From a virus, in the IMG/VR virus record IMGVR_UViG_3300050190_000114: DNA of 53,692 nt. One strand, 5' to 3'. The notes below the pieces were generated by a model. That model saw only the letters and a program-made list of their open reading frames with translations. It searched no databases and was not told the DNA's origin. Below, in pieces: positions 7,708 to 53,692 of this stretch. Numbering within the stretch: position 1 is the stretch's first letter; every line of letters starts with the position of its first letter. The position numbers and the translations under genes are program-made.

Positions 7708-7907
7708 CGCATCCTTATATATTGGCCGCGTCACTGTGCCCGATCCGTGCGAACCATTGCGCGGCCGCAGAATACTCGGTCAGAATATCGAAAACAAGCG
7801 TTGCCCAACATTCTCAAGCGGCATTCTATGTTTCCGCGCTCCCGCAAGCCGGAAACCTTCCTTTGCTGGTCAACGGCGGTTTATCCACAGTCGAGGAAAA
7901 CCTGTGA
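7704..7907 (+). CDS. Bridge ORF A (sense ORF filling late cassette A)
   Basis: ATGA overlap with the upstream stop and GTGA overlap with the downstream start. L5 core at 7747-7764. L3 block at 7851-7886. Confidence 0.45.
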   Translation: MTHPYILAASLCPIRANHCAAAEYSVRISKTSVAQHSQAAFYVSALPQAGNLPLLVNGGLSTVEENL

Positions 7908-8554
7908 TACTCCCGATCACCTTAACCGGCAGGCTCGGGCTACCAGGTGGAGGTGTTCCCAACTTCGCACTCGATTCCCAAGGAAACGTAATCGGCGCCG
8001 AGTTCTGGCCTTCAGGATCAGACGCCAGTGGAGTGGATCCGGCAACCGGCGAACCGATGACCGCGGAATCCGGCAGCTCGTCACCGTTTACTAACGATGC
8101 CTCCGTGTGGACCGGAGAAACCCCAGGAGCCCCCAGCATCCTCGATATCGGCTCAAGCGTTCTCAACGTCGGATCGCGGCGCAACACCAGGGGTACGCAG
8201 TGGGACCGGATAGGATCGCAGCGAAGCGAATCGCAGTTTGATAAATGGCGAAGAGCAGGACGTCCGACCGCTTGCTCCAAAGGAATCGGCGATTACACAT
8301 TGTCGAACGGAATGCCGTGCGATCCAACCGTATACGGAGCCGTGCTGTGCCAGGACACAACGCAGCGGATTCTCAACGCGATCGCTGCAGGCGCGAGCGT
8401 AGCGGCCGGCACTCAGGTTCAGCCAGCATACGGAACGCCGGGATATGTCGGCACGCTTCCGCAAGTGGCAGTAGCAGGCTCAGCTTCACCTGGCGCATGG
8501 ATTGTTGGGATAGCAGCCGTAGCAGCAGTTATCTATCTGGTGAAGAACCGATGA
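7904..8554 (+). CDS. Late protein with a C-terminal TM anchor
   Basis: GTG start preceded by GAGGAA and the L3 block. Same frame as track ORF 7676..8554, whose N-terminal extension covers cassette A. Confidence 0.65.
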   Translation: MILPITLTGRLGLPGGGVPNFALDSQGNVIGAEFWPSGSDASGVDPATGEPMTAESGSSSPFTNDASVWTGETPGAPSILDIGSSVLNVGSRRNTRGTQWDRIGSQRSESQFDKWRRAGRPTACSKGIGDYTLSNGMPCDPTVYGAVLCQDTTQRILNAIAAGASVAAGTQVQPAYGTPGYVGTLPQVAVAGSASPGAWIVGIAAVAAVIYLVKNR

Positions 8555-10252: not shown

Positions 10253-10935
10253 TGAACGTCCAACTCCGCAACGGAAACGGCTACCCCTCGCGTGGAGGCT
10301 TCCGCTACCCCGGCAGACAGAGACGATCCGGAATCGGCGCCGATCCTGGAGTGAACGTCACAACGATCTGGACACCCTCAGGCGGATGGAGCGGAAGCGG
10401 CAGCGGACCAGCGGTGTATCAAGCCCCCACACCCATAGCGCCTCCGGCTTGTAGCCAGGACACGCGACCGGGCGGCGCGGCATTCTCGTCGGCATGCATC
10501 GCGCAACTGCTAGCGACACAGCAGCAGAACATGGCGCAAGGAACCGCAGCGAACTACAACGTGGACGTACAGAACTGCTTGAATACCTTCCCGCAACCGC
10601 CAGACTGCTACTCGCGAACCTTCGGGCTCACCCTTCCAGGAACAACAGGCGGATCGACTGCCGATATTGTAAACGCAGCGGCTCTCTTGGGAGACCCAGC
10701 GGCGAAAGCGCTAGCCGCGGAAGGTGTACCGCCTACCCCTCCAGTGACAACGCCGCAGCAGACGCCGAAAGCAACACCTCCGCAGCAAGGCGGGACCACG
10801 GCAGATAGCACGAACGCCACAAGTTCATCGAGTTCAAGTTCCGGCGCAGCGCTAGTTTCGGCTCCCATCAATCCGATGCTGTATTGGATTGCGGGACTAG
10901 CAGCAGTAGCCTTGATTATTTCGGCGGTTAAATGA
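10252..10935 (+). CDS. Late membrane protein (C-terminal TM, Pro/Thr/Ser-rich linker)
   Basis: ATG 10252 overlaps the upstream stop. C-terminal YWIAGLAAVALIISAV. Confidence 0.65.
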   Translation: MNVQLRNGNGYPSRGGFRYPGRQRRSGIGADPGVNVTTIWTPSGGWSGSGSGPAVYQAPTPIAPPACSQDTRPGGAAFSSACIAQLLATQQQNMAQGTAANYNVDVQNCLNTFPQPPDCYSRTFGLTLPGTTGGSTADIVNAAALLGDPAAKALAAEGVPPTPPVTTPQQTPKATPPQQGGTTADSTNATSSSSSSSGAALVSAPINPMLYWIAGLAAVALIISAVK

Positions 10936-11459
10936 TGAGGGACTTCTCAGGCATGGGACAAGTCGGAATGGGGGATGCATCGTACGATTCCCTTGTCGCG
11001 GCCTTTGCGACTCGCGCGGTCGATCCGGCAGGCTTCGCGCGTATCCGCCCGGGCCGTCCGATTCCCAATCCTGAAACGTGCCTGAAGATCCAGTGTGGAG
11101 CGATTACGCAGGAAGAAGCCGGGATCGACCTCTTAGCCGATTGTTCGTTTGGAGGATTCGCCGGCGCGATGAGCTGCGCTTCGCCTCTCTGCGCTCCGTA
11201 TTGCGGATCAATGGCGACCGTTGCCCGAGCGTCCCAACCTTTACCCGTGGCGCCGCGTGTCGAGCAGATGTTCGTCGATGCGATTCAGAGGAACGGATGC
11301 GAGCCGGTTTATTGGGGCGCGAAGTTTGGCGGGCCGTATCCTGATTCTTCTCCGTGTGGATGTGGAGCGGGAGGGTTTATCAGGGAGCATCCGTTTGTAG
11401 CTGTAGCTCTACTTGGAGCGGCGGCTTATGGAATATACAGGTGGAGGGCCAGAAGATGA
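10932..11459 (+). CDS. Cys-rich late membrane protein (C-terminal TM)
   Basis: ATGA overlap. C-terminal FVAVALLGAAAYGIY. Confidence 0.65.
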   Translation: MMRDFSGMGQVGMGDASYDSLVAAFATRAVDPAGFARIRPGRPIPNPETCLKIQCGAITQEEAGIDLLADCSFGGFAGAMSCASPLCAPYCGSMATVARASQPLPVAPRVEQMFVDAIQRNGCEPVYWGAKFGGPYPDSSPCGCGAGGFIREHPFVAVALLGAAAYGIYRWRARR

Positions 11460-11542
11460 GGACTCGGGCTAAATTTAGTTGTTGGGCTCAACTGTTCTCA
11501 CGACTCCATGCTCGGCTTTGCGCGGCGGTGTTCTATGGATAG
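11456..11542 (+). CDS. Bridge ORF C (28 codons, L5 block only)
   Basis: ATGA overlap with the upstream stop. Its stop lies 5 nt past the downstream ATG 11535. L5 block at 11474-11526. Confidence 0.4.
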   Translation: MRTRAKFSCWAQLFSRLHARLCAAVFYG

Positions 11543-12531: not shown

Positions 12532-12704
12532 AGAACCTCGGAGGCTACGGGTATCAATGGAGGCATTCCCCGGGATGCTGTAAAGCCGGAGCGATTGCAG
12601 CCGGAGACGTGAGGCCAGATTGTGAATCCTCATGCTGGTTTTGGATTCTCGCGTTAGGAGCGGTGGGACTGGCGATGATTCTTCCAAAAAAGGGGCAGAA
12701 GTGA
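12528..12704 (+). CDS. Small Cys-rich TM protein (58 aa, below the track cutoff)
   Basis: ATGA overlap with the upstream stop. Translation MKNLGGYGYQWRHSPGCCKAG..WFWILALGAVGLAMIL. Confidence 0.5.
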   Translation: MKNLGGYGYQWRHSPGCCKAGAIAAGDVRPDCESSCWFWILALGAVGLAMILPKKGQK

Positions 12705-13009
12705 AATCAGTTTTTGGGCTGATCGGGATGTTGCGGCTCTGTGCTCGGCATTGCGCGGAGGCGTTGAAATTCCGGTCCCCAGCGTTGCGCCAATTCAGGA
12801 ACAGAGCATACCGGGCATTCCGAACTCGTACGTATGCTGAATTCGCTGTGGCGATGAATTGTGAAGAATGCGCCACAGTCGGGACAGGTGACAGTTTCGG
12901 ACATTTCGGAAATGCGTCCGAGCATCAAGGCCTCCGCGCACTGATGGCCAGAATAGCAGAAATCTTCAACGGCGGTTTACCCCTAATCCCAATTGAGGCG
13001 CTGACATGA
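12701..13009 (+). CDS. Bridge ORF B (sense ORF spanning late cassette B)
   Basis: GTGA overlap upstream and ATGA overlap downstream. L5 block at 12711-12758. L3 block at 12967-12983. Same frame as track ORF 12632..13009. Confidence 0.4.
   Translation: MKSVFGLIGMLRLCARHCAEALKFRSPALRQFRNRAYRAFRTRTYAEFAVAMNCEECATVGTGDSFGHFGNASEHQGLRALMARIAEIFNGGLPLIPIEALT
12707..12928 (-). CDS. Antisense zinc-ribbon protein inside cassette B
   Basis: Pattern CPDCGAFF..CPVC. Its C-terminus RAMPSTEPQHPDQPKN is encoded by the reverse complement of the L5 block. Confidence 0.45.
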   Translation of the reverse strand: MMLGRISEMSETVTCPDCGAFFTIHRHSEFSIRTSSECPVCSVPELAQRWGPEFQRLRAMPSTEPQHPDQPKN

Positions 13010-14790: not shown

Positions 14791-14975
14791 AAGCTGCCGC
14801 GCTCACACCCGATACCGGATCGTCAACAATGACGCGGCCAATCACTAATCGAACCGGCATGGAGCCATTCTTCGAATTCCTGAACGCCATACTCTACGCC
14901 TTCGTTCAGATTCGAATCGAGTGGCAAGCCTTCAAATCGTATCGGCGGAACATTCCGCAAGGAGCAAGTTTATGA
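14787..14975 (+). CDS. Small late protein
   Basis: ATGA overlaps at both ends. Confidence 0.5.
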   Translation: MKAAALTPDTGSSTMTRPITNRTGMEPFFEFLNAILYAFVQIRIEWQAFKSYRRNIPQGASL

Positions 14976-15346
14976 TGGGAGCAATTGCCAAACGTCGAGG
15001 GCTGAGAGATTTCGTCTCAGCAAACTTCCCGGAGCCCTACAACCCGATCTATCACCCCGCACTGGGAGACCTGCGCGACTTCGTAAGCGCAGAATTTCCC
15101 GAACCCTACAACCCGATCTACCCGGATACCCACACCGGGATTCGAGGGATGGGATGCGGCGGCGGTTGCGGCTGCGCGGAGTGCGGCATGGGCGCGCTCG
15201 CCGTGCCAGCCTGGGCGATGACCTTACCGGCTCCGCTGAATGGAGTGGACCCGGCATTGAGTATTCCGTGGGTGTATTGGGGACTCGGGATTGGCGGCCT
15301 ATTGGTTGTCGGGCCGATGCTGTTCGGTCGGAAAGGAAGGCGGTAA
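14972..15346 (+). CDS. Late membrane protein with a duplicated LRDFVSAxFPEPYNPIY motif
   Basis: ATGA overlap. Two tandem motif copies, a Gly/Cys cluster, and a C-terminal TM. Confidence 0.65.
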   Translation: MMGAIAKRRGLRDFVSANFPEPYNPIYHPALGDLRDFVSAEFPEPYNPIYPDTHTGIRGMGCGGGCGCAECGMGALAVPAWAMTLPAPLNGVDPALSIPWVYWGLGIGGLLVVGPMLFGRKGRR

Positions 15347-16424: not shown

Positions 16425-16426
16425 CG

Positions 16427-17014
16427 ATGCGTGTTTTTCTATGTGTGGTGGTTCTGATGACCTTTGAGCAATATCTGGCCGCGATGCGGAAGACGCCGGA
16501 GTTCGTCAAGAACCATCGGAACCCCTACGCCGATTCGCTCGCTCAGGACCTAGACGCGCATCTGAAGACCGTCCGCGCCTGGTTATTGGGAAACATCCAC
16601 ACGGCCAAAATGCTCGACGCGATGAAGTTTTTCAATACCGTCTTTCCGGGCCACTACGACGCCAAGGAAGGGAAGAAACTCTATCGCGGGCAGAATACGG
16701 ACCAGTTTGACGGGACGCCGCGCTCCTACTCCTACGACCGCTGGATAGCGGACAGTTTCTCCTGTGAACCGACAGCGGGGCCTTTCGTCAAGCTATTTTC
16801 CAAGCATACGGAATCGTTTGTGATCGAGCGGAAGGTCTGTAAAGCATGTCCAGACCGGGGCGCTTTCAAATATTCTCTTGACCTCGCCAAGATCCTCAGC
16901 GAGTACGGGACGGGCAAGCACAAGTATGCGGTGGAAAGTGAAGTGGTGATCTTGAACACGAAGCCAAAAGGCAAAACGGCCAGCGTGGTCAACATCGAGT
17001 GTGAACGGACGTAA
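16427..17014 (+). CDS. Candidate R-S-ExE ADP-ribosyltransferase (virion-associated?)
   Basis: Motifs KLYRG, RSYSYDRWIADSF and AVESEVVIL appear in the canonical order. The R-to-S spacing is shorter than in classical toxins. Confidence 0.35.
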   Translation: MRVFLCVVVLMTFEQYLAAMRKTPEFVKNHRNPYADSLAQDLDAHLKTVRAWLLGNIHTAKMLDAMKFFNTVFPGHYDAKEGKKLYRGQNTDQFDGTPRSYSYDRWIADSFSCEPTAGPFVKLFSKHTESFVIERKVCKACPDRGAFKYSLDLAKILSEYGTGKHKYAVESEVVILNTKPKGKTASVVNIECERT

Positions 17015-18396
17015 TGGCTCAAGCGGCTCAATCTCGCGGATTCTTCGGCTTCCTGCCCAAACAGCAGAAGCGGAACATCTTCGGCTGGTCAAAGAAAGAG
17101 AAGACAGCCAGGCGCAAGCACGTGGGAGCCAGCGCGACCGAAGCGCGCGGCGCGGGGTATCGCTACGCCACACACAAGAGCGACGAGAACTTTTCGGAAT
17201 GGATGGACCGGAAAGACTTCGGCGGCAAGATCAAATCGAACGAGAAGGAACGCCTAGCCAGCGCCTTTTCCATGGGCTTTGATCGCGGCAAGAAAGAACT
17301 GGAATTCAAAGCGTCAAAGGCTGTTCGAAAGGAAGAGAAGCGCAAAAAGAAAAAAGAGGACGCCACCGCAAAACGCCAGAAGCGCTCCACGGACGCGAAG
17401 AAATCAGGCATTGGCAAAAAGTCGTTTTGGACAGCGGCGGGACTGGCAGCAGATGAAAAGTGGAACCCGGCCCGCTCCGCTGCTCAATACCGCCTGGCGC
17501 AAGCAGTTCTCTCCGGTACCGCCAGATCCTCGATGCCCCGCAAGGTTGCTCAGGAGATCGTAGACCGGACACCGGCGAAGATGCGCAGCCAGTACATGAA
17601 AAACCCAACGTCTCGCAACATTCGGCGCAACCCGCCGAATCGAAGATTTGTTGTTGTCTGGGAAACCGGAGAGACTATTCGATACTTTGTCGAAGATAGA
17701 AATACCGGGATATTCATCGCTGGACCGTTTAGAACAAAATCCTCTGCGCAACAGAAGGCCGATTCGCTGGAGCGTGCGAGTCGGAGAAATCCGAAGCGCA
17801 ACCCGGCAGCGGATGCCGCCGCGCTATCGACAAAGTTTCACGGGAGGCAATCTACAAGCCAAAAACGAATCGTTGAACAGATGCACGAGCATAAACACTT
17901 GATGGAAATAGGCCCACTGGTAAGACTGGTAGTGGACACCCCCACCAACAAAGTAGCCGTGCTGAACTTCAACACGTCGGACCCAAAGAAGATCGTATAT
18001 TTATCCAGCTCCGAAAAGGATCCGAAAACGGGAAAGATCGTCGGCAAGCAATTGTACCTGAGGGGCGGGGACCAGGAAGTGAACCTGAAAGGCCTGGGTA
18101 TGGATTCAGCGCTCTGGATACGCGACAAGATGGAGCTCGGCAGGCTCCACGAATTCAAACGGGGCGATCCAAAACTGATCGTCGACGGGGAAGAGGTGAA
18201 AGGCTCGATCACCTACCGAACAAGGAAAGGGATGGACGATTTCAAGCTGATCGACTACTGGCACAGGTCAGGGGAAGAAACTAGCCGGAAGGCGGGACCG
18301 GCAGCGCGGCCACTGGTGATCTACGACTATCGAAACAAGAAACTCGAACTCGCCGGCGGCCAGTACGTCGTTGATCGGCCCGGCATTATAAATTAG
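17014..18396 (+). CDS. Large basic late protein (460 aa), function unknown
   Basis: TAATG overlap. Lys-rich N-terminal third. Confidence 0.7.
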   Translation: MAQAAQSRGFFGFLPKQQKRNIFGWSKKEKTARRKHVGASATEARGAGYRYATHKSDENFSEWMDRKDFGGKIKSNEKERLASAFSMGFDRGKKELEFKASKAVRKEEKRKKKKEDATAKRQKRSTDAKKSGIGKKSFWTAAGLAADEKWNPARSAAQYRLAQAVLSGTARSSMPRKVAQEIVDRTPAKMRSQYMKNPTSRNIRRNPPNRRFVVVWETGETIRYFVEDRNTGIFIAGPFRTKSSAQQKADSLERASRRNPKRNPAADAAALSTKFHGRQSTSQKRIVEQMHEHKHLMEIGPLVRLVVDTPTNKVAVLNFNTSDPKKIVYLSSSEKDPKTGKIVGKQLYLRGGDQEVNLKGLGMDSALWIRDKMELGRLHEFKRGDPKLIVDGEEVKGSITYRTRKGMDDFKLIDYWHRSGEETSRKAGPAARPLVIYDYRNKKLELAGGQYVVDRPGIIN

Positions 18397-40627: not shown

Positions 40628-40634
40628 ACAGCCC

Positions 40635-40684
40635 CCGCGCAATGCCGAGCATAAATAGTTCCCAGCCTTGAGCCCAACAACTGA
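40635..40684 (-). promoter_or_regulatory. Reverse-oriented L5 block directly upstream of a leftward gene (candidate promoter plus leader)
   Basis: The minus strand reads GTTGTTGGGCTCAAGG..TATTTATGCTCGGCATTGCGCGG. It fits TTGTTG-N17-TATTTA. Confidence 0.45.
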
Positions 40685-40730
40685 AAATCATCCGTGAACA
40701 ATTGGAGAGGTTTGAAGTGAGCGTTTAGCA

Positions 40731-41858: not shown

Positions 41859-42094
41859 CCTTTGAAATCCCCTGCCAGGGATGCTCCGGCGCTGGATTCT
41901 TCGGCGGCAACGGCCCCACTGTTGAACGCAAGTGCGAAGCGTGCGACGGAAGAGGCGTACTCGTCGAAGATACGCTAGCTAATGTATGGCCCGTTCCGAA
42001 GTCTGTTTTCGCGTCAATGACCAGAGACGAAGGGCAAAAGCTGTTCAATCAGATTCAGGAGAATAGGATGCATCGGGAGGATTTTGGTGTCTAA
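41855..42094 (+). CDS. DnaJ-type CxxCxGxG zinc-finger protein
   Basis: Motifs CQGCSGAG and CEACDGRG. GTGA overlap. Confidence 0.6.
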   Translation: MTFEIPCQGCSGAGFFGGNGPTVERKCEACDGRGVLVEDTLANVWPVPKSVFASMTRDEGQKLFNQIQENRMHREDFGV

Positions 42095-42761: not shown

Positions 42762-43306
42762 TAATCAGACCAGAACCCAACAAGCCTCTAACTGTAAACT
42801 TGCTCTACCCTTCCGCCAAAGAGAAGCCAGGCCGAAGTGGAATCGATTTCATGTACACCCTAGTGGGCGGAAACGCGCTCTTCGTCCCACCAGTGGCTCA
42901 CGATGAAATCCAGAAGCTCCACGCCGGCCCAGGCGAACCGTTCACGCTTCTGAAAACCATCGGGCAAGGAAATCAGGCGCAATGGAAAGTGGAGAGGATT
43001 GTACAACCGAGCGCCCCGCCTTCGGAGGAAGAAACGAGACGCCCGGTTCCTAGCACAATTGCCCCACGGTCTATCACAAACCGGACCAATGGCAAGGTCC
43101 CAGTTTCAGTCATGCCAGCCGCACCGACTTTGAGCACTCCGCAATCGCGGACTCTCGTTAAGCAACTCTTTGCATCGGTCGATGCCTGGAAGTTGACGAA
43201 AGAATACGCCAGGAGTCAGGGAATCGAGCTAGAACCCACCAGCCGGGATATCTGCGCGCTGGCGATCACGGGCGGAATTCAGGTATTTAAGGAGGGGGTG
43301 TACTGA
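42758..43306 (+). CDS. Hypothetical early protein
   Basis: GTGA overlap. Confidence 0.6.
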   Translation: MIIRPEPNKPLTVNLLYPSAKEKPGRSGIDFMYTLVGGNALFVPPVAHDEIQKLHAGPGEPFTLLKTIGQGNQAQWKVERIVQPSAPPSEEETRRPVPSTIAPRSITNRTNGKVPVSVMPAAPTLSTPQSRTLVKQLFASVDAWKLTKEYARSQGIELEPTSRDICALAITGGIQVFKEGVY

Positions 43307-44814: not shown

Positions 44815-45638
44815 CAAAGATCGAGTGGACTGATGAAACCTGGAACCCGACGCGCGGTTGTTCTCGAGTTTCGGAAGGTTGCCGATACTGTTACGCCGAG
44901 CGCCAGGCGGCTAGGAACCTGCCAGGTAGCCGATCCCCCACAACCGGCGAAGCCTTCGCCATTCTCACCGACTCCGGCCCGCGTTGGACCGGCAAAGTCG
45001 AACTGATCGAATCAAAACTAACCGAACCACTCCACTGGAAGACCCCCCGGCGTGTGTTCGTCAATTCGATGAGCGACCTATTCCATGAGCAGTTGCCGGA
45101 TGAGGCGATAGACCGCGTTTTCGCCGTGATGGAAGTCACCCGGCACATCACGTACCAGGTGCTCACAAAGCGCGCCGAACGGCAGCGGGCTTACATAATA
45201 AACCGATGGCGGCGCGTCGGTGGACTCTTGAGCGAACAGGGTAAACGGCCACTCGATAATGTCTGGCTCGGGGTATCGGTCGAAGACAAGACCAACAAAT
45301 ACAGGATCGATCTTTTGCGCCAGACGCCGGCCGCGGTTCGATTTTTGTCGATAGAACCTCTACTCGAAGACATCGGCGAACTGGACTTGACCGGCGTCCA
45401 CTGGGGTATCGTAGGCGGCGAATCCGGCCCGCAGGCGCGGCCGTGCGACCTCGCATGGATCGAATCCACCGTTGACCAGTTCGGATCCGCTGGCGTGCCT
45501 CTATTCGTCAAGCAGGTAGGCACAAGGCCGGGATATCAACGTAAAAACGGCTGGCGAGATATCGACCTGAAAGATTCCAAGGGCGGCAACTGGGATGAGT
45601 GGCCGCAAAAGCTCCGCGTCCGGGAGTTTCCCCGATGA
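44811..45638 (+). CDS. Phage Gp37/Gp68 family protein (DUF5131-like)
   Basis: N-terminus KIEWTDETWNPTRGCSRVSEGCRYCYA, plus FLSIEPLL and GGESGP. Confidence 0.8.
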   Translation: MTKIEWTDETWNPTRGCSRVSEGCRYCYAERQAARNLPGSRSPTTGEAFAILTDSGPRWTGKVELIESKLTEPLHWKTPRRVFVNSMSDLFHEQLPDEAIDRVFAVMEVTRHITYQVLTKRAERQRAYIINRWRRVGGLLSEQGKRPLDNVWLGVSVEDKTNKYRIDLLRQTPAAVRFLSIEPLLEDIGELDLTGVHWGIVGGESGPQARPCDLAWIESTVDQFGSAGVPLFVKQVGTRPGYQRKNGWRDIDLKDSKGGNWDEWPQKLRVREFPR

Positions 45639-45865
45639 AACCACCCACCGAAGCCGATCTGATCGAAATCGAGAATCACGTTTTGAAAACGTGGCAGATC
45701 GCCGAAGCTGAAGGTGGAAACCGGCCCTGGCGCATAGTGAGGACCCTGGAATACTTGATAGAGATGGCCCGCCTTCGTGTAGTGCGACCAATTCCCCCGA
45801 TGCCACCGCGCAAAGCTAAGCCTAAACCCGTTTCCAGCGTTCAACCCAAACCCAAAAACCGTTAA
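45635..45865 (+). CDS. Hypothetical small protein
   Basis: ATGA overlap at 45635, same frame as track ORF 45599. Confidence 0.5.
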   Translation: MKPPTEADLIEIENHVLKTWQIAEAEGGNRPWRIVRTLEYLIEMARLRVVRPIPPMPPRKAKPKPVSSVQPKPKNR

Positions 45866-48603: not shown

Positions 48604-49929
48604 TTGGACGAGATAGCCCTACCTTGCGACCTGCCAGCGGAGCGGCTGGTTTTAGGCTCGATCATTTTAGAGCACCAAAAGCACGCCGAAGTATTTCAAC
48701 TTTTGGCGGCCGATGATTTTATCCTCGAGAAACACCGGCGCATCTATGGCGCGTTACATGCGATGGACGCCACCGGCCTGGAAATCGACCGGGTCACCAT
48801 CGCCAGCTATCTCAATGATCGTCACGAGCTCCAATCGGTTGACGGAATCGCCTACCTGACCTCGCTCGACACCGGCTTACCGGAGATGCCCAGCGTGGAA
48901 TCCTACGTGGATATCATCCGCGAGAAAGCAGCGCTTCGAAAAATCATCGTCACGTCCCAGAATCTCATCAACCGTTGCGTATCAACTCAGGGCGATTCAA
49001 AAGAACTGATCGCGCTGGCGGAAGACGCGCTCACAAAGATCGGCTACAAGCCAGAGCAGACCGCCGAGGTGCTTGGATTGGAACAAGTGATTGAGCAGTC
49101 TGGCGGCCTCGACCGTTTTCTAAATCCGCATCAAACCGCGACCTTCGTGAAAACCCCTTGGGTGAAACTTACCGACATGACCGGGGGATACCGGCGCAAG
49201 GAACTATTTTTGCTCGCCGGCAACCCGTCGATGGGAAAAAGCGCGGCCGCGGTTCAGGTAGCCATGAGCGTAGCCCAGGCCGGCTTAGGTGTTCTCATCT
49301 TTTCGCTTGAGATGTCGCGCGCCTCTTTATTCACTCGGATGATGTGTACGCTTTCCCGCGTCGACGGGGCGAAACTCCGGGCCGGATATCTCAATCAGGA
49401 GGAACGCACTCGGATCCAGAAAGCTATCCAGCAGATTTTAAGCTGGCCGCTTTGGATCGCCGAGTATGGAATCTCGACAGTGAGCGCAATCCGCGCCGCG
49501 GTTCGGCGGAAGAAAACCAAGCAGCAGGATATTTTTATGGTAGTGATCGACTACCTTCAACTTTTGCAATCGATAGGGAAGCACGCCAACCGAAACGCGG
49601 AAGTGTCCGAGATCACCCGGCAGTTGAAACTTTTAGCGGCTGATGAGGATGTCAACGTACACCTCCTGTCGCAATTGAACCGGGATAACCTGAAAGAGCG
49701 CCGCGCGCCGGCCCTGCACGACCTCCGGGACTCCGGAAGTATTGAGCAAGACGCCGACGCGGTAGCCTTCGTATGGCGCCCGGAGATGCTCCACCGGGAA
49801 CGCGAGGACCTGCACGGCCTGGCGGAATTGTTGCTCTGGAAACAGCGCAACGGACCAACCGGGAAAATAGAGCTGACCTGGCTGGGTCACATTACAGCCT
49901 TTGAAAATCGAGCGGAGGATCTGGAATGA
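48604..49929 (+). CDS. dnaB: DnaB-type replicative helicase
   Basis: Motifs PAERLVLGSIIL, Walker A GNPSMGKS, VVIDYLQLL and RDSGSIEQDADAV. TTG 48604 follows GAGGAG. The track ORF 48415 is over-extended. Confidence 0.9.
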   Translation: MDEIALPCDLPAERLVLGSIILEHQKHAEVFQLLAADDFILEKHRRIYGALHAMDATGLEIDRVTIASYLNDRHELQSVDGIAYLTSLDTGLPEMPSVESYVDIIREKAALRKIIVTSQNLINRCVSTQGDSKELIALAEDALTKIGYKPEQTAEVLGLEQVIEQSGGLDRFLNPHQTATFVKTPWVKLTDMTGGYRRKELFLLAGNPSMGKSAAAVQVAMSVAQAGLGVLIFSLEMSRASLFTRMMCTLSRVDGAKLRAGYLNQEERTRIQKAIQQILSWPLWIAEYGISTVSAIRAAVRRKKTKQQDIFMVVIDYLQLLQSIGKHANRNAEVSEITRQLKLLAADEDVNVHLLSQLNRDNLKERRAPALHDLRDSGSIEQDADAVAFVWRPEMLHREREDLHGLAELLLWKQRNGPTGKIELTWLGHITAFENRAEDLE

Positions 49930-50413: not shown

Positions 50414-51077
50414 GCGCAGCCTCTGCAACCCCCACGCGGAACCGGACGCGCCGCGAGTGTCCAACTGCCCGGTACACGGAGGCAGACTAGGCGACTGGAT
50501 TCAAACTTTCACCGGGCTTGTTATGTATCCGCTCGATCCCCGGCCCGAAGAAATATGCATCGAGGATATCGCCCATGCGCTTTCAAACCTCTGCCGATTC
50601 ACCGGCCACTGCCGGGAGTTCTACAGCGTAGCCGATCACAGCGTCCGCGTGAGCTATACCTGCGATCCGAAGGATGCCCTGTGGGGATTATTGCACGATG
50701 CGCCGGAGGCGTACCTCGCGGATATGAGCCGGCCCGTCAAGCGATTCTCCGAGTTTGGCCGCATATATCAGGGGATTGAAGATCGTCTCATGGAAGTGAT
50801 TGCGGAGAAATTCGGCCTGCGACCGGGATACCTTGCGCCCGCCAATGTGAAACACGCCGATGCGGTTTTACTCGCGACTGAAAAGCGCGATTTGATGCAA
50901 GGTTGTTTCAAGCCGTGGGAAAACCCAGCCGAGCCGCTGCGGACTGTTATCAGGCCGCTCTCCCCAGGGGACGCGCGCCTAAACTTCATGCGCCGGTTTC
51001 GGCAGTTGACAGCCAACGAGCGGACCTCACTTCCCAACGGGAGCGACTGGTTAGATTCAAAATCGGAGAATAGTTAA
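50376..51077 (+). CDS. HD-domain phosphohydrolase (YfbR-like 5'-deoxynucleotidase family)
   Basis: Motifs DWIQTFTG, IEDIAHALSNLCRFTGH, SVADHS and LLHDAPEAYLADM. The start is uncertain (GTG 50376, TTG 50406 or GTG 50457). Confidence 0.75.
   Translation: MPSPNSNTENLYERSLCNPHAEPDAPRVSNCPVHGGRLGDWIQTFTGLVMYPLDPRPEEICIEDIAHALSNLCRFTGHCREFYSVADHSVRVSYTCDPKDALWGLLHDAPEAYLADMSRPVKRFSEFGRIYQGIEDRLMEVIAEKFGLRPGYLAPANVKHADAVLLATEKRDLMQGCFKPWENPAEPLRTVIRPLSPGDARLNFMRRFRQLTANERTSLPNGSDWLDSKSENS
51018..51062 (+). repeat. R1 repeat
   Basis: Sequence GAGCGGACCTCACTTCCCAACGGG..TTAGATTCAAAA. Ends 15 nt before ATG 51078. Confidence 0.85.
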
Positions 51078-53692
51078 ATGGAAAATCAAGATCAGAGCTT
51101 GGGATCAACTGTTGAGACGGACTCTCACCCGCCATTGCGCGAAGGGATGCGAGAGAACTGCCCATCCTGCAAAGTGCATCGCGGACACCGGGCAGGCTGC
51201 CCACTCGCACAGGAAAGGGCGGATGGCGACTACTCCATCGAAGCCTACCACGCCTTTCTACGCGCGAAATGTAACCTGCCGCAAGAACTCGGCATCCCCA
51301 TCGAGCCCGGCGACCTTCAGTCGCTTTTCGCACAGTTGATCTTCGCAAGCGGCTTCGAACTGAAACCCCACCAGGTGGCCGGCATCATCTGGGGAGCCCG
51401 CGGCGGAAGACGCGCGCTATTCGAAAGTTTCGGACTCGGGAAGACGGTCCAGCAACTTCTCATCATCTGGCTAATCTTGCGATACCTCGCAACCAAAGGA
51501 ACCAACGGCCGCGGCCTGATCGTGGCGCCACTAGGAGTCAGGCAGGAATTCACCAGAGACGCGGCCAAAATCGGCATCGAGTTGAAATTCGTCAGGCGCA
51601 TCGAAGAATGCGAAGAGACTGGGATTTACCTCACCAATTACGAAACCGTCCGCGACGGAAAACTCGATCCGCAAAAGTTTATCGTCACCAGCCTGGACGA
51701 AGCAACCATCCTCGCATCCTTCGGCGGGACGAAGACCTTCCGCGAGTTCATGCGCCTGTTTGAGAACGTGCCGTACCGCTTCGTTGCGACCGCAACACCG
51801 GACCCGAACGAGTATATCGAGCTGCTGGCTTTCGCGGCCTATCTCGGCATCATGGACGTGAGCCAGGCGAAAACCAGATTCTTTAAACGCGACTCGGTAC
51901 ACGCCGATAAGCTAACCCTACACCCTCACAAGGAGAAAGAATTCTGGCTCTGGGTTTCCACGTGGGCGCTATTCCTGAACACGCCATCGGACCTTGGTTA
52001 CTCGGATGAAGGCTATGCTCTGCCCCCGCTCGAAGTCATCAAGCACGAAGTCAAGGTAGACCACTCGACGGCGCACGAAGAAAAGGACGGGCAAGGAAGA
52101 ATGTTCCGCGAGGCATCCCACGGAGTTTCGGAAGCGGCTCGAGAAAAGCGTGACACGCTCCCGGAACGCATCGCCAAGATGGAGGAAATTCTCGAAGCCG
52201 AGCCCGAGAAACATTTTATCCTCTGGCATGATCTCGAAGCGGAGCGACTCGCGATCGAGAAGACTGTACCGAACGTAGTCAGCGTGTACGGCGCCATGCG
52301 CGCGAAGCCGGGAGGCGATGATGAGATTGCCGACGCCGTTGCCAGATTCTCCGATGGGGAGATCCAGTATATTGCCGGCAAACCCGTGATGCTCGGCGCG
52401 GGGGTTAATTGGCAGCGGCATTGCGCGGATGCTATCTTTCTCGGAATCGGTTTCAAATTCCGCGACTTTATCCAAGCCGTTCACCGGATCCGGCGTTTCT
52501 TGCAAACCAAGCCCGTCCGAATCCATCTGATCTATGCGGAGTCGGAACGCCTGATCCTCGAGAACCTGATGCAGAAGTGGGAGCGCCACAATCTCCAGGC
52601 CGCGCGGATGAGCGAGATCATCCGCGAGTACGGATTATCCCAGGCCGCAATCCAAAGCGTGCTGGTCAGGCAGATGGGTTGTGAACGTGCCGAGGTTACG
52701 ACCAAATCTTGCAAACTCGTCAACAATGACAGCGTGGAAGAATTGGAAACGATGGAGCCGAACAGCATAGATCTAGCCCTGACTTCGACCCCATTTTCCA
52801 ACCAGTACGAATTTGTTGCATCCTACAATGATTTTGGGCACACCGATAGTGCGGAGCACTTTTTCGAGCAGATGGACTTTCTAACCCATCGGGTTTTAAA
52901 GGTCCTGAAACCGGGTCGGCTTGCTGCGATCCATGTGAAGGATCGCATCGTACCGGGGGGGATCACGGGATTAGGATTTCAGACCGTCTACCCGTTCCAC
53001 TGCCGGATGATTGACCATTTCATCAAGCACGGCTTCGCGTACATGGGGATGAAGACCATCGTCACCGATGTGGTGAGGGAAAATAATCAGACCTACCGGC
53101 TCGGCTGGACGGAGCAATGCAAGGACGGAACAAAGATGGGCGTAGGCATGCCTGAATATCTTCTCATCTTTCGGAAACCGCCGACCGATACGACCAACGC
53201 GTACGCGGATGAGCCGGTAGTAAAACACAAGCCGATGTGTCTTGACGAAGAGACAGGCGAGACCGGGCCGTATGACAAGAACAATAAGCACCAGCACATT
53301 CTTTTGAATTCGGGATACTCGCGCGCACGTTGGCAACTTGACGCGCACGGGTTTGAGCGGTCGAGCGGTAACCGTCTCCTCACGGCGGAAGAGTTGATGG
53401 GGATCGCTCACCACGCGATCTATAAGAAGTTCCGCCACTACTCAAAAACGCAGCCGTACAATTACGAGCACCACGTCGCGCTAGCGGAGGCGCTGGAGCA
53501 GAAGAAGATTCTGCCAGTCAAGTTTATGCTCCTCCCGCCGCAATCGTGGCACCCCGACGTGTGGACGGATATTACCAGGATGCGAACGTTGAACGGGGCG
53601 CAGTGGGCAAAGGGTAAAGAGCCTCATCTTTGCCCCCTCCAGTTCGACATTGTGAACCGCGTTATCAATCAGTGCTCCCAGCCGGGCGAGAC
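51078..53692 (+). CDS. SNF2/DEAD-like helicase fused to an N6/N4-type DNA methyltransferase. The ORF runs off the window and continues at 1..350, about 945 codons in total.
   Basis: Absent from the supplied track because it has no stop in the window. Walker A FGLGKT, DEAT box SLDEATIL, helicase C-lobe. MTase motif IV-like IDLALTSTPF and motif I-like LDFFGGLF. All long minus ORFs here are shadows. Confidence 0.85.
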   Translation, partial: MENQDQSLGSTVETDSHPPLREGMRENCPSCKVHRGHRAGCPLAQERADGDYSIEAYHAFLRAKCNLPQELGIPIEPGDLQSLFAQLIFASGFELKPHQVAGIIWGARGGRRALFESFGLGKTVQQLLIIWLILRYLATKGTNGRGLIVAPLGVRQEFTRDAAKIGIELKFVRRIEECEETGIYLTNYETVRDGKLDPQKFIVTSLDEATILASFGGTKTFREFMRLFENVPYRFVATATPDPNEYIELLAFAAYLGIMDVSQAKTRFFKRDSVHADKLTLHPHKEKEFWLWVSTWALFLNTPSDLGYSDEGYALPPLEVIKHEVKVDHSTAHEEKDGQGRMFREASHGVSEAAREKRDTLPERIAKMEEILEAEPEKHFILWHDLEAERLAIEKTVPNVVSVYGAMRAKPGGDDEIADAVARFSDGEIQYIAGKPVMLGAGVNWQRHCADAIFLGIGFKFRDFIQAVHRIRRFLQTKPVRIHLIYAESERLILENLMQKWERHNLQAARMSEIIREYGLSQAAIQSVLVRQMGCERAEVTTKSCKLVNNDSVEELETMEPNSIDLALTSTPFSNQYEFVASYNDFGHTDSAEHFFEQMDFLTHRVLKVLKPGRLAAIHVKDRIVPGGITGLGFQTVYPFHCRMIDHFIKHGFAYMGMKTIVTDVVRENNQTYRLGWTEQCKDGTKMGVGMPEYLLIFRKPPTDTTNAYADEPVVKHKPMCLDEETGETGPYDKNNKHQHILLNSGYSRARWQLDAHGFERSSGNRLLTAEELMGIAHHAIYKKFRHYSKTQPYNYEHHVALAEALEQKKILPVKFMLLPPQSWHPDVWTDITRMRTLNGAQWAKGKEPHLCPLQFDIVNRVINQCSQPGE
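53566..53692. repeat. Terminal overlap (second copy of nt 1-127)
   Basis: Identical to the window start. Confidence 0.95.

What the first reader, a model, noticed from the sequence alone, without database searches (positions are those of the whole stretch)
7747..52428. Core motif CGGCATTGCGCG occurs about 18 times, is read in different frames, and is always co-oriented with transcription
Copies: the L5 core (GCTCGGCATTGCGCGG or 1-3 nt variants) is seen near 7755, 11516, 12747, 22853, 23898, 25461, 27341, 28040, 29687, 33148, 36862, 42173, 43417, 43709, 51135 and 52419 on the plus strand. It is reverse-complemented at 40635-40650. The 11-mer GGCATTGCGCG is exact at 8 of these sites.

Orientation: every plus-strand copy lies in a rightward transcription unit. 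The single minus-strand copy lies just upstream of a leftward gene (40627).

Frames: late cassettes read it as R-H-C-A. Early genes read it as S-A-L-R-E/G (42084, 43306 twice, 36664) or P-L-R-E (the helicase N-terminus). Conservation is therefore at the nucleic-acid level, not the peptide level.

Structure: in cassettes G, J, H and D the core is followed by a short GC hairpin, for example GCGCGG-N9-CCGCGC at 27347-27367.

Candidate roles: binding site for a phage regulator or antiterminator; RNA processing or standby site; an orientation-dependent DNA signal (Chi-, KOPS- or stoperator-like); or a recombination breakpoint.
Basis: seen in the sequence. Interest (0 to 1): 0.75.

Follow-up and report, generated by a model that had tools for sequence, protein, structure and literature searches.

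The report
Repeated gene-junction adaptor in a phage
The 12-base word is the best-conserved part of a roughly 65-base, two-box sequence that an uncultured phage lineage places at the boundaries between genes; there it opens a small reading frame that links one gene to the next and flanks swappable, backwards-facing accessory genes, which makes it a new example of the poorly understood junction repeats of phages.

Summary
The motif is real. GGCATTGCGCG occurs 8 times against 0.1 expected. It is box 2 of a bipartite element of about 65 nt, which I call A: (RTG)CTTTTAGTTTGGGCTSRAC, a spacer of 23±1 nt, then TCGGCATTGCGCGG followed by a G-run. The window holds 14 significant copies. About 57 more lie in metagenomic relatives. 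No representative bacterial genome carries it in more than one copy. A has no conserved RNA structure and no Rfam match.

A usually begins 3-30 nt after the stop codon of a gene on the same strand. After A comes one of four things:
- an SD-like G-run and an ATG;
- a second repeat, C3, which carries the ribosome site of the next late gene;
- a cassette of 200-850 nt that holds real genes on the opposite strand and ends in C3;
- in early genes, the rest of an ORF in which A is read as LGSTVPPGSESALRE.

The frame opened at A stays free of stops up to the next gene in 15 of 19 cassettes, and it often ends in an ATGA overlap. Cargo differs between relatives at the same junction.

Best reading (0.4): a translated junction adaptor that also serves as homology for recombination. 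A bipartite promoter or roadblock site is not excluded (0.28). "Always co-oriented" is overstated, because two copies are antisense.

The parts
3532..3596 (+). A copy with a diverged core (CGTCAGTGCGCG). It lies antisense inside the leftward gene 3528..3893, at its junction with gene 3202..3528.
   Evidence: nhmmer E=2e-11; gene map.
7714..7769 (+). Marginal A-like copy inside the small junction ORF 7704..7907. That ORF starts with an ATGA overlap on gene 7033..7707 and ends with a GTGA overlap on gene 7904. C3 lies at 7873.
   Evidence: nhmmer E=0.025; ORFs; sequence.
11469..11532 (+). A copy of the leader type. It begins 9 nt after the stop of gene 10932..11459. The small ORF 11441..11542 ends 8 nt past the ATG of gene 11535.
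12696..12764 (+). A copy that opens junction ORF 12701..13009. The ORF starts with a GTGA overlap on the upstream gene and ends with an ATGA overlap on gene 13006. C3 lies at 12969.
22803..22871 (+). A copy that opens bridging ORF 22803..23402, which stops 2 nt before the ATG at 23405. The cassette holds the opposite-strand ORF 22875..23288. C3 lies at 23368.
25420..25480 (+). A copy with a 44-nt box spacing. It opens bridging ORF 25409..26026, which stops 3 nt before the ATG at 26030. C3 lies at 25992.
27292..27360 (+). A copy in an 'empty' cassette: A, then the hairpin GCGCGG-N9-CCGCGC, then C3 (27401), then the ATG at 27426. The small ORF 27280..27441 starts with an ATGA overlap on gene 26030..27283.
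29639..29706 (+). A copy that opens ORF 29641..30033, which ends with an ATGA overlap on gene 30030. It sits next to the real opposite-strand gene 29047..29469. The same position in the relative is 89% identical.
33100..33167 (+). A copy in an 'empty' cassette: A, a hairpin, C3 (33207), then the ATG at 33227. The small ORF 33099..33227 ends on the start codon of the next gene.
40627..40693 (-). The only co-oriented minus-strand copy. It lies between the leftward genes 40731..41399 and 40181..40627. A GGGGG run and then an ATG follow 8 nt after the core.
42126..42190 (+). Early-type A copy at codons 14-35 of gene 42087..42761, read as KLAASVATDSDSALREG.
43368..43434 (+). Early-type A copy at codons 21-43 of ORF 43306..44283.
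43666..43727 (+). Early-type A copy at codons 120-141 of the same ORF. Compared with the relative, sequence is homologous only downstream of A, so this copy marks a mosaic junction.
45800..45864 (-). Diverged antisense A copy at the 3' end of rightward gene 45635..45865. It is kept at the same place in the relative, and it lies inside a segment that a 97-99.9% identical strain has replaced.
51084..51148 (+). Early-type A copy at codons 3-24 of the 945-aa SNF2-helicase/methylase gene (51078 to, after the wrap, 350). It is preceded by a B repeat at 51010-51071.
36841..36879 (+). Partial copy (box 2 half only) inside gene 36664..37107.
   Evidence: nhmmer E=7e-4.
52416..52427 (+). Exact 12-mer core without box 1, inside the helicase/methylase gene. 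Its status is unclear.
7873..7885 (+). C3 repeat (core ACGGCGGTTYACC, with an SD just downstream) before the start of gene 7904.
12969..12981 (+). C3 repeat before the ATG at 13006.
21092..21104 (+). C3 repeat before the ATG at 21120, with no A copy upstream.
23368..23380 (+). C3 repeat before the ATG at 23405.
24502..24514 (+). C3 repeat before the ATG at 24531; right end of cassette 23846-24538.
25992..26004 (+). C3 repeat before the ATG at 26030.
27401..27413 (+). C3 repeat before the ATG at 27426.
28378..28390 (+). C3 repeat before the ATG at 28404.
33207..33219 (+). C3 repeat before the ATG at 33227.
4462..4474 (-). C3 repeat on the minus strand, directly before the start (4458) of leftward gene 4180..4458.
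39778..39790 (-). C3 repeat on the minus strand, after the last gene of the leftward unit 40627..39810.
23846..24538 (+). Bridging ORF of a cassette with a degenerate A-like start. Its coding potential is about zero, and it overlaps the start of gene 24531.
24110..24298 (-). Real 62-aa cargo gene inside that cassette. Mismatches against the relative fall 16/7/28 by codon position, and there is a 3-nt indel. In the relative the gene sits at a different junction.
29047..29469 (-). Real opposite-strand gene next to A at 29639. Its coding score is 0.15 per codon, like the backbone genes.

Best explanation
The word is box 2 of a bipartite element of about 65 nt, which I call A. It is conserved as nucleic acid and forms the left-hand module of the gene junctions of this phage lineage.

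Proposed mechanism.
1. The genome is expressed as long chains of translationally coupled genes.
2. A sits just after the stop codon of one gene.
3. A supplies a start codon. In late copies this is an RTG 12 nt before box 1. In early copies the start comes from the preceding B repeat.
4. The reading frame opened there runs to the start codon of the next backbone gene, whatever lies in between. That can be nothing, a short spacer plus the C3 ribosome-site repeat, or up to about 850 nt carrying accessory genes on the other strand.
5. The frame typically ends in an ATGA overlap with the next gene.
6. The G-run after box 2 acts as the Shine-Dalgarno sequence (SD, the ribosome-binding site) when the next gene follows directly.

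In this way ribosomes are handed on across the junction, and the transcript is never left untranslated.

Side effect: the same A and C3 sequences stand in direct orientation at many junctions. They therefore provide portable homology through which cassettes are exchanged, gained and lost.

Shown: the anatomy, the positions, the open and coupled frames, the opposite-strand cargo, the mosaic breakpoints, and conservation as nucleic acid.

Inferred: that ribosomes really restart at A, that the two boxes are needed for this (as an unstructured start region or as the site of a factor), and that recombination uses A and C3.
For: (1) Enrichment and extent.
- Searches show the enrichment.
- The profile search finds 14 significant copies in the window.
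- About 57 non-redundant copies occur in relatives.

(2) Position.
- Box 1 starts 3-30 nt after the stop of a co-oriented gene in about 30 of 52 copies.
- In the window, 5 of 13 plus-strand copies start 0-30 nt after a plus-strand stop, and 2 more overlap the stop. The random expectation is 4.4%.

(3) Direct leaders. In at least 10 copies a GGGGG, GGAGG or GGTGG run follows the core, and the ATG of a well-coding gene lies 1-16 nt after it. The small ORF through A stops at or within a few nt of that ATG, for example TGACATG, TAGCATG, ATGGCTGA and GTATGA.

(4) Bridging frames.
- In 19 cassettes of 170-818 nt, the frame opened at A has no internal stop in 15. The other two frames manage this in 0 and 1 cassettes. 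Total stop counts are 10 against 91 and 60.
- In 11 of 19 the frame's stop overlaps the next start as ATGA.
- The window ORFs are 12701..13009, 22803..23402, 25409..26026, 27280..27441, 29641..30033 and 33099..33227.

(5) The bridging ORFs have about zero coding potential, while the opposite strand carries real genes. Mismatches by codon position are 16/7/28 and 39/20/98.

(6) Coupling is the rule in this genome. Of 78 adjacent same-strand gene pairs, 33 overlap by 4 nt and 54 have gaps of 10 nt or less.

(7) The A-encoded peptide appears dispensable. At the helicase-type junction it is fused in frame to the gene in the window, in L123 and in L163. In L178 it is a separate ORF that ends in GGATGA.

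(8) Recombination.
- Cargo differs at the same backbone junction.
- The same 62-aa cargo gene sits at another junction in the relative.
- Homology with the relative begins exactly at A in ORF 43306..44283.
- The differences between nearly identical strains coincide with A and B copies.
- The repeats are 85-97% identical between genomes whose genes are about 67-77% identical.
Against: - A need for an open frame does not explain why the two boxes are almost invariant as nucleic acid, or why their spacing is fixed to ±1 nt. That pattern is typical of a protein recognition site such as a promoter.
- Two copies, 3532+ and 45864-, are antisense to the local genes. One of them is conserved in a relative.
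- The codon-phase signal lies in the LGST..SALR frame, not in the RHCA frame that is kept open.
- Many copies have no clear SD before the RTG of A.
- The small ORF of copy 40693- is not coupled to the next gene.
- Part of the openness over cargo genes could be the usual stop-poor antisense frame of GC-rich genes.
- The extra copies were found with nucleotide patterns, which inflates the apparent conservation of the boxes.
- There are no expression data of any kind.
Confidence: 0.4

Rival explanations
1. A is a bipartite DNA site read by a protein of the transcription machinery. It could be a phage-specific (middle or late) promoter whose transcripts start at the G-run after box 2. It could instead be a polar roadblock or operator of the stoperator kind. 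On this view the start codons and open frames are only the price of sitting inside a genome that must stay translated.
For: - Two invariant boxes at a fixed distance of 43±1 nt, independent of reading frame.
- No RNA structure.
- Copies inside ORFs and in two frames.
- In the leader-type copies a gene starts 1-16 nt after the G-run.
- Both antisense copies, and all cassette copies, point into genes on the opposite strand. That would fit late antisense silencing.
- The element is restricted to this lineage and is absent as a repeat from 185,579 species genomes, as expected for a phage-specific signal.
- Stoperators show the same correlation between site orientation and direction of transcription (PMC9283540).
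Against: - There is no match to sigma-70 geometry. The scan finds canonical sigma-70-like promoters only at the early switch, 41414-41487. By inspection, the box spacing does not fit the -35/-10 or -24/-12 rules.
- Pfam and PHROGs find no RNA polymerase, sigma factor, repressor or integrase. Most proteins are of unknown function, however.
- The most conserved bases would fall between the -10 region and +1.
- This model does not by itself explain the frames that stay free of stops and end in ATGA.
Confidence: 0.28
2. A, together with C3 and B, has no role in expression of its own. It is a recombination linker, or the end of a selfish cassette, that persists because it spreads accessory genes between junctions and between co-infecting phages. 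This is the way PeSLs work in T4-type phages.
For: - Cargo is variable between constant flanks, the same cargo occurs at different junctions, and mosaic breakpoints fall at A.
- Strain-level indels coincide with the repeats; one is an insertion of about 290 nt that ends in a B repeat.
- Box 1 (TTTGGGSTNAAC) recurs as an inverted repeat inside C3, so cassettes are bracketed by a 12-nt inverted repeat.
- PeSL precedent: PMC2839356 and PMC4122927.
Against: - Copies at equivalent positions in genomes only about 70% identical keep the boxes while the spacers differ between paralogous copies. This points to purifying selection on the boxes rather than recent spread or gene conversion.
- Many copies flank no cargo at all (leader type and empty cassettes).
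- No target-site duplications are visible around the short cassettes (by inspection).
- No transposase, integrase or invertase was found.
- Homology of 7-13 nt per box is short for homologous recombination.
Confidence: 0.15
3. The element matters as a peptide, ..SLGST(x)5-6S.SALR(G/E)G. It would be an N-terminal tag or leader of several proteins, possibly cut after LRGG by the phage's papain-family protease.
For: - Early copies are in frame with long ORFs and none has a stop in this frame.
- Synonymous-type changes are in excess in this frame only, even among late copies: 0.50 against a null of 0.29, reached by 5 of 300 permutations.
- A Peptidase_C1 gene lies at 39023..39769.
- Late copies end in A-L-R-G-G.
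Against: - 3 of 21 late copies have stops in this frame. Another 16 copies have ±1-nt spacers that break the frame between the boxes.
- Only about 3 of 11 leader-type copies are in this frame with the downstream gene, which is the chance level.
- Upstream genes are in frame with it in 7 of 17 cases, again the chance level, so read-through is not supported.
- There is no SD before the TTG of box 1.
- Codon choice in S-A-L-R is invariant.
- The peptide is fused in some orthologues and separate in others.
Confidence: 0.07
4. A is a structured RNA: a processing site, an antitermination element of the nut or put kind, or a riboswitch-like leader.
For: - It is co-oriented with transcription and lies in leaders.
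- A GC hairpin follows the core in some copies (27347-27367 and 33154-33174).
Against: - Folding energies are no better than those of shuffled sequence.
- A consensus fold of 31 copies gives -2.0 kcal/mol and 5 pairs without covariation.
- Rfam gives no match at the gathering threshold or at E<=1.
- Pairing between A and C3 shows no covariation.
Confidence: 0.03
5. A is a host-type oriented repeat (Chi-, KOPS- or REP-like) that the phage merely shares with its host.
For: Strand bias of 13:1 for the core word.
Against: - The two-box pattern gives 17 single hits in 596 Gb of species-representative genomes, with about 6 expected by chance. None shows the flanking similarity.
- The element is 65 nt long, bipartite and tied to gene junctions.
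Confidence: 0.02

Closest known systems
Start-associated sequences (SAS) and extended SAS of Cluster K mycobacteriophages (Pope et al. 2011, PMC3203893)
   Same: - Both are asymmetric repeats restricted to one phage lineage.
- Both occur in 11-19 copies per genome, nearly all in one orientation, with a single reversed copy in some genomes.
- Both sit at the ribosome-binding position a few nt before start codons and contain an SD-like core.
- Both are absent from host genomes.
- In both cases the function is unproven and no RNA pairing is supported.
   Different: - SAS is 13 bp (GGGATAGGAGCCC). ESAS adds 17-bp inverted repeats.
- A is about 65 nt with two unrelated boxes. It has no dyad symmetry and is often translated.
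- A can lie hundreds of nt from the next start and flanks opposite-strand cargo.
- The SAS consensus is not present in the window.
- In this genome the C3 and B repeats are closer to SAS in position than A is.
Stoperators of Cluster A mycobacteriophages (L5 gp71 sites; PMC9283540)
   Same: - Both are dispersed asymmetric sites, with more than 20 per genome in L5.
- Both lie in short intergenic gaps.
- In both, orientation correlates with the direction of transcription.
- A monomeric repressor with two DNA-binding domains reads the two parts of the stoperator site.
   Different: - Stoperators are 13-mers bound by an identified immunity repressor of a temperate phage.
- Here no repressor or integrase is recognisable.
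- The element is five times longer, carries start codons and an SD, and also occurs inside ORFs.
PeSL cassettes (promoter-early stem-loop) of T4-type phages (PMC2839356, PMC4122927)
   Same: - Both are repeated junction motifs that flank variable accessory genes.
- Both coincide with the insertions, deletions and replacements that distinguish related phages.
   Different: - PeSLs are a sigma-70-like promoter plus a terminator stem-loop. A has neither.
- PeSL-flanked genes are co-oriented early ORFs. Here the cargo is on the opposite strand inside a late operon and is spanned by a translated bridging ORF.
Translational coupling through overlapping stop and start codons (ATGA) in phage and bacterial operons (established general knowledge)
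   Same: The junction ORFs use the same ATGA, GTGA and TGATG geometry as the 33 ordinary gene pairs of this genome.
   Different: Here the coupled ORF is a spacer with no coding potential, a conserved 5' module and a conserved 3' module. It is overprinted antisense on real genes. I did not find this arrangement described (a limited search).

Membership tests
SAS/ESAS (Cluster K mycobacteriophages) | 13-bp consensus GGGATAGGAGCCC | tested here: not met
   One match with 2 mismatches, at 8507, against 1.3 expected by chance. It is not at any A, B or C3 copy.
SAS/ESAS (Cluster K mycobacteriophages) | Located 3-7 bp upstream of the start codon, at the position of the ribosome-binding site | tested here: inconclusive
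   True for at least 10 leader-type A copies, where the G-run is followed by an ATG 1-16 nt after the core. Not true for cassette copies or for copies inside ORFs.
SAS/ESAS (Cluster K mycobacteriophages) | One orientation; lineage-restricted; absent from host genomes | tested here: met
   12 of 14 copies are co-oriented. Three IMG/VR contigs and one set of metagenome contigs carry it. Species genomes give only chance singles. The host is unknown.
Stoperators (Cluster A mycobacteriophages) | Short (13-14 bp) asymmetric site in intergenic gaps, oriented with transcription | tested here: inconclusive
   A is asymmetric, and its orientation and junction position fit. However, it is about 65 nt long, bipartite, and 4-5 copies lie inside ORFs.
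Stoperators (Cluster A mycobacteriophages) | Cognate immunity repressor, and a temperate life style with an integrase | tested here: not met
   No repressor, HTH regulator or integrase family was found among 85 proteins; the only HTH hit is in an HNH endonuclease. Most proteins are unannotated, so this is a weak negative.
Stoperators (Cluster A mycobacteriophages) | Repressor binding blocks transcription elongation, depending on site orientation | not testable with these tools
   Needs binding and transcription assays.
PeSL cassettes (T4-type phages) | Sigma-70-like early promoter within the motif | tested here: not met
   No promoter-like site at any A copy. The number of promoter-like sites is below shuffle expectation.
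PeSL cassettes (T4-type phages) | Stem-loop terminator within the motif | tested here: not met
   No terminator-like site at A, no stable fold and no consensus structure.
PeSL cassettes (T4-type phages) | Flank variable accessory genes and coincide with indels and replacements between relatives | tested here: met
PeSL cassettes (T4-type phages) | Recombination between copies yields mini-circles | not testable with these tools
   Needs PCR or long reads from phage DNA.
Known structured RNA families (Rfam 15) | Match to a covariance model, or a conserved fold with covariation | tested here: not met
TIR transposon or MITE | Terminal inverted repeats | tested here: inconclusive
   A 12-nt inverted repeat links box 1 of A to the C3 core (TTTGGGSTNAAC: 16 sites against 1.6 expected; the minus-strand hits are all C3 copies apart from the antisense A copy at 45839). 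The similarity does not extend further.
TIR transposon or MITE | Target-site duplication and a transposase | tested here: not met
   No duplication is visible next to the short cassettes at 27292-27425 and 33100-33226 (by inspection). No transposase or recombinase family was found.
Chi-, KOPS- or host-type oriented word | High copy number in the host chromosome | tested here: not met
   No genome with more than one hit among 185,579 species representatives. The host itself is unidentified.

The most novel reading that the evidence does not exclude
This uncultured phage lineage uses a junction system that has not been described.
- Accessory genes are carried backwards inside translationally coupled operons.
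- Each lies in a cassette bracketed by two conserved modules. A is the restart module and C3 is the stop plus ribosome site.
- The sense strand of each cassette is kept as a translated 'bridging ORF', overprinted antisense on the cargo, so that ribosomes and transcription pass through.
- The invariant two-box signal of A is read by a dedicated phage or host factor that controls this restart, or controls transcription from it.
- As a by-product, the cassettes become freely exchangeable.
Probability: 0.3. Interest if true: 0.8.

Novelty: new variant of a known kind. Interest (0 to 1): 0.62.

Why it matters
Genome-wide junction repeats are known in a few phage groups, namely SAS/ESAS, stoperators and PeSLs. 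For SAS/ESAS the function is still unknown.

This case adds a much larger, bipartite element in a lineage that has no cultured relative and almost no annotatable proteins.

It also comes with an unusually clear and testable regularity. The frame opened at the element stays free of stops across as much as 818 nt of antisense cargo, and it ends on the next gene's start codon.

If translation of these spacer ORFs is real, it shows how a compact, translationally coupled operon can tolerate and trade reverse-oriented accessory genes. It would also give annotation pipelines a reason not to call such ORFs ordinary genes.

If the element is instead a promoter or roadblock, it defines the regulatory code of an unknown phage group.

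Either way, the three repeat families give a nucleotide signature for finding relatives in metagenomes.

Tried and rejected
- **RNA structure.** Single-sequence folds of six copies or cassettes have z-scores from -1.3 to +0.5. A consensus fold of 31 copies gives -2 kcal/mol. Rfam gives nothing at gathering or E<=1 thresholds. No tRNA or tmRNA genes were found.
- **Long-range pairing of box 1 with C3.** The complementarity exists, but the variable positions do not covary across 17 A-C3 pairs.
- **Stop-codon read-through of the upstream gene into A.** The upstream stop is in frame in 7 of 17 cases, which is the chance level.
- **DNA inversion of the Hin/Gin type.** C3 shares CGGTTTAC with gix and hix half-sites (from memory). 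No invertase or other recombinase was found, and the sites are direct repeats rather than inverted pairs of the same element.
- **Transposon ends.** No target duplication and no transposase.
- **Promoter geometries.** Sigma-70, sigma-54, ECF-type and Bacteroidetes-type geometries were checked by hand. None fits the box spacing. The scanner finds canonical promoters only at 41414-41487.
- **Phage-encoded RNA polymerase or sigma factor.** None detected.
- **Host repeat.** The plain 14-mer gives only single chance hits in IMG/VR. The two-box pattern gives only chance singles in genomes.
- **Cultured relatives.** There is no nucleotide or protein match in 50,697 phage records, and no close relative of the 460-aa protein in IMG/VR.
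- **Cargo function.** No Pfam or PHROG family matches ten cargo proteins.
- **Complementarity of the boxes to conserved 16S rRNA segments.** This was only checked by eye and nothing convincing was seen.

Full report
**1. What the window is**

The first and last 127 nt are identical (family D11). The window is therefore a circularly assembled genome of about 53.57 kb. The same contig occurs in Logan, JGI and ENA assemblies at 99.8-100% identity.

The content is phage-like. It encodes:
- a DnaB helicase (48604..49929);
- a 945-aa SNF2-type helicase fused to an N6/N4 methylase (51078, wrapping to 350);
- three HNH endonucleases;
- DUF5131, DUF968 and DUF3310 proteins;
- a papain-family protease;
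- beta-helix and ice-binding-like proteins.

Most proteins match nothing. There is no nucleotide or protein match among 50,697 deposited phage genomes.

Genes are packed very tightly. Of 78 adjacent same-strand pairs, 33 overlap by 4 nt (ATGA or GTGA) and 54 have gaps of 10 nt or less. Canonical divergent sigma-70-like promoters lie at 41414-41487. Strong terminators lie at 18491-18537 and 34264-34289.

**2. Checking the observation**

The core word is strongly over-represented. The exact 11-mer occurs 8 times against 0.10 expected. The 12-mer with at most one mismatch occurs 14 times against 0.88 expected, 13 on the plus strand and 1 on the minus strand.

Printing the flanks shows that the word is only the 3' part of a longer repeat. 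A profile built from 13 copies finds 14 significant copies in the window.

- 3532-3596 (+) lies inside leftward gene 3528..3893.
- 45800-45864 (-) lies at the end of rightward gene 45635..45865.

Five listed sites are marginal, partial or undetected: 7755, 23898, 28040, 36862 and 52419. The hairpin at 27347-27367 exists but is not general.

**3. Anatomy of the element**

The consensus comes from 57 non-redundant copies in the window and its relatives:
- In late-type copies, an RTG lies 12 nt upstream of box 1.
- The sequence runs CTTTTAG-TTTGGGCT-SRAC (box 1).
- A variable spacer follows.
- Then comes TCGGCATTGCGCG (box 2).
- A G-rich run follows (GGGGGA, GGAGG or GAAGG).

The distance from box 1 to the end of box 2 is 43 nt in 33 copies, 44 nt in 13 and 42 nt in 3. 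The spacing is thus held to ±1 nt, not to multiples of three.

The spacers fall into subfamilies. They differ between paralogous copies but are kept between copies at equivalent positions in different genomes.

There is no stable or conserved RNA fold and no Rfam match at E<=1.

**4. Two companion repeat families**

C3 has the consensus GGAAACCTTSGCGGACAGCACGACGGCGGTTYACCCCAAAGG. Its 13-nt core (ACGGCGGTTYACC) occurs 12 times against 0.19 expected. In most copies it is followed within about 30 nt by the start codon of a gene: nine late plus-strand genes and the leftward gene that starts at 4458.

B has the form ..AGCGGACCTCC..CCCGAATTCAAAC..AAAGGA. It occurs 12-13 times, always on the plus strand. 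Most copies lie just before an early-gene start codon; some lie inside ORF 43306..44283 or in an intergenic gap.

Box 1 of A (TTTGGGSTNAAC) recurs as an inverted repeat inside C3. The pattern has 16 sites against 1.6 expected, and apart from the antisense A copy at 45839 the minus-strand hits are C3 copies.

**5. Distribution outside the window**

The plain 14-mer gives only single chance hits in IMG/VR.

The two-box pattern finds a 56-kb relative with at least 9 copies (IMGVR_UViG_3300021559_000001), two further viral contigs and 44 metagenome stretches, many with several copies.

In 185,579 species-representative genomes it gives 17 single hits without any flanking similarity. It is therefore not a host repeat.

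Between the window and the 56-kb relative, genes are about 67-77% identical in nucleotides (the helicase 85%). The repeats are 85-97% identical.

**6. Where A sits**

I used a codon-usage score trained on this genome. Box 1 starts 3-30 nt after the stop of a co-oriented, well-coding gene in about 30 of 52 copies.

In the window, 5 of 13 plus-strand copies start 0-30 nt after a plus-strand stop, and 2 more overlap the stop. The random expectation is 4.4%.

Four things can follow A.

(i) *Leader type.*
- The G-run serves as an SD, and the ATG of a good gene lies 1-16 nt after the core.
- Examples are window 11469 and 40693-, and L127_3587, L155, L167, L180, L189, L122_1075 and L178.
- The small ORF through A ends on or next to that ATG, as in TGACATG, TAGCATG, ATGGCTGA and GTATGA.

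(ii) *Empty cassette.* A is followed by a short hairpin, C3 and an ATG. Examples are window 27292 and 33100, and L122_2119 and L192_3021.

(iii) *Loaded cassette.* Here 170-850 nt separate A from C3.

(iv) *Early type.* A lies 3-40 codons into an ORF, just after a B repeat and a start codon. It is read as ..LGSTVPPGSESALRE...

**7. The loaded cassettes**

The plus-strand ORFs that span the cassettes have a coding potential of about zero: 22803..23402, 23846..24538 and 25409..26026 in the window, with many more in relatives. Backbone genes score 0.12-0.22 per codon. The products have odd compositions.

The opposite strand carries real genes:
- The 62-aa gene 24110..24298(-) differs from its homologue in the relative at 16, 7 and 28 sites by codon position and has one 3-nt indel.
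- A 173-aa cargo gene shared by three relatives differs at 39, 20 and 98 sites.
- None of ten cargo proteins matches Pfam or PHROGs.

Despite this, the sense-strand frame opened at A (the W-A..R-H-C-A frame) is kept open:
- It has no internal stop in 15 of 19 cassettes.
- The other two frames manage this in 0 and 1 cassettes.
- Total stops are 10 against 91 and 60.
- In 11 of 19 cassettes its stop codon overlaps the next backbone start as ATGA.

The window ORFs behave the same way.

Part of this openness may be the usual stop-poor antisense frame of GC-rich genes. That effect does not explain why it is always the frame set by A, or why the frame begins at the upstream stop and ends on the downstream start.

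**8. Evidence for exchange**

- Downstream of the homologue of gene 23405..23839, the window carries 65-aa and 62-aa cargo genes. Relative L191 carries the 173-aa gene at that junction.
- The 62-aa gene lies at another junction in the 56-kb relative, next to the homologue of gene 30030. It keeps the same A subfamily there.
- In ORF 43306..44283, homology with the relative begins exactly at A. The N-terminal parts are unrelated, and the window carries an extra A..B segment.
- A strain 97-99.9% identical to the window differs by a replaced block that contains the antisense A copy. It also has an insertion of about 290 nt that ends in a B repeat and is bounded by a 35-nt duplication.

**9. Nucleic acid or peptide?**

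Evidence for constraint as nucleic acid:
- two or three frames are used;
- the spacers vary by ±1 nt;
- some copies have stops;
- S-A-L-R is always TCGGCATTGCGC in the window.

One complication remains. Among 21 late-type copies with the 43-nt spacing, single-nucleotide differences are enriched for synonymous changes only in the L-G-S-T..S-A-L-R frame. The synonymous fraction is 0.50 against a null of 0.29, reached by 5 of 300 column permutations. The open RHCA frame gives 0.20, and no antisense frame is enriched. I labelled two frames wrongly in the output; one search carries the correct labels.

This test is not controlled for relatedness, and I cannot explain the result (notebook, unexplained).

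The peptide itself appears dispensable. At the helicase-type junction it is fused to the gene in three genomes and forms a separate ORF, coupled through a GGATGA overlap, in a fourth.

**10. Interpretation**

The best-supported account is the junction adaptor described under "best explanation".

The shown part is the anatomy and its regularities. The inferred part is that ribosomes restart at A and that this is why the element is kept.

The main weakness is that an open frame alone does not require two invariant boxes at a fixed distance. That feature, together with the two antisense copies, keeps a DNA-level reading alive: a phage-specific bipartite promoter, or a polar roadblock in the manner of stoperators.

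A role purely in recombination is less likely. The boxes are kept while the spacers diverge, and many copies flank no cargo.

The structured-RNA and host-repeat readings are essentially excluded.

**11. Comparison with known systems**

The closest published cases are these:
- the SAS/ESAS repeats of Cluster K mycobacteriophages, which sit at gene starts, keep one orientation and still have no known function (PMC3203893);
- the stoperators of Cluster A phages (PMC9283540);
- the PeSL cassettes of T4-type phages (PMC2839356 and PMC4122927).

A shares position and orientation with the first two, and cassette-flanking behaviour with the third. It fails the defining sequence or structural features of each one: the SAS consensus is absent, A has neither promoter nor stem-loop, and no repressor is recognisable.

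I therefore class it as a new variant of a known kind of feature, not as a member of any of these families. A limited literature search did not find the translated bridging ORF over reverse-oriented cargo described.

Noticed in passing
window 2098-2155, 3140-3197, 35197-35258, 37008-37065, 37637-37694, 38959-39016, 41573-41630, 42690-42747, 43560-43617, 43950-44007, 44530-44587, 50345-50402, 51010-51071: Repeat family B is about 58 nt long (..AGCGGACCTCC..CCCGAATTCAAAC..AAAGGA), and all copies are on the plus strand. Most copies end just before an early-gene start codon and overlap the 3' end of the preceding gene. B is read in at least two frames (SGPPT.. and KRTSD..). It contains ACCTCC, identical to the anti-Shine-Dalgarno end of 16S rRNA, about 40 nt upstream of the SD. 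AGCGGACCTCC with at most 1 mismatch occurs 12 times against 1.1 expected.
   Followed up: partly
window 1-127 and 53566-53692: An exact 127-nt terminal direct repeat. This is an assembly overlap of a circular or terminally redundant genome of about 53,565 bp.
   Followed up: partly
window 41414-41487: Back-to-back sigma-70-like promoters in the 244-nt gap between the leftward gene 40731..41399 and the rightward early genes. They read TTGACA-17-TATACT leftward and TTGACT-17-CAAAAT (with an upstream TG) rightward. This looks like the early switch region and shows that the host uses canonical promoters.
   Followed up: no
window 19414-19525, 19744-19855, 20743-20854: Three copies of a 112-nt repeat (62-71% identical) inside three consecutive late genes, including the ice-binding-like protein 20051..21034. 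This is probably a shared protein domain (family D5).
   Followed up: no
window 14997-15051, 15066-15120, 21766-21820: A 55-nt repeat encoding ..DFVSANFPEPYNPIY... It occurs twice in tandem in gene 14972..15346 and once in gene 21120..21908 (family D14).
   Followed up: no
L124 8022-8310, against window 42052-42090: A 99.9%-identical strain carries an insertion of about 290 nt with small ORFs and a B repeat. The insertion is bounded by a duplication of about 35 nt (GATTCAGGAGAATAGGATGCAT.GGGAGG.TTTTGG). This looks like the footprint of a cassette insertion.
   Followed up: partly
window 39023-39769 and the ends of late-type A copies: The phage encodes a papain-family cysteine protease (PF00112). 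In one frame the late A copies end in A-L-R-G-G, which resembles the LRGG cleavage motif of ubiquitin-type substrates. This is probably a coincidence and was not tested.
   Followed up: no
window 43306-44283: This 325-codon ORF has much lower coding potential (0.03 per codon) than its neighbours (0.11-0.17). It contains two A and two B copies. It may be a chain of junction modules fused to one real domain rather than an ordinary gene.
   Followed up: partly
window 7769-7827, against L125 1895-1953: A 59-nt stretch between the A-like copy at 7714 and the C3 copy at 7873 is 96.6% identical in the 56-kb relative. That is far above the surrounding genes. In the relative it lies in a cassette next to a C3 copy.
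   Followed up: no
window 18491-18537 and 34264-34289: Two strong terminator-like hairpins. One has 20 bp and lies after the 460-aa gene 17014..18396. The other has 11 bp, mostly G-C, and lies at the end of the late region.
   Followed up: no
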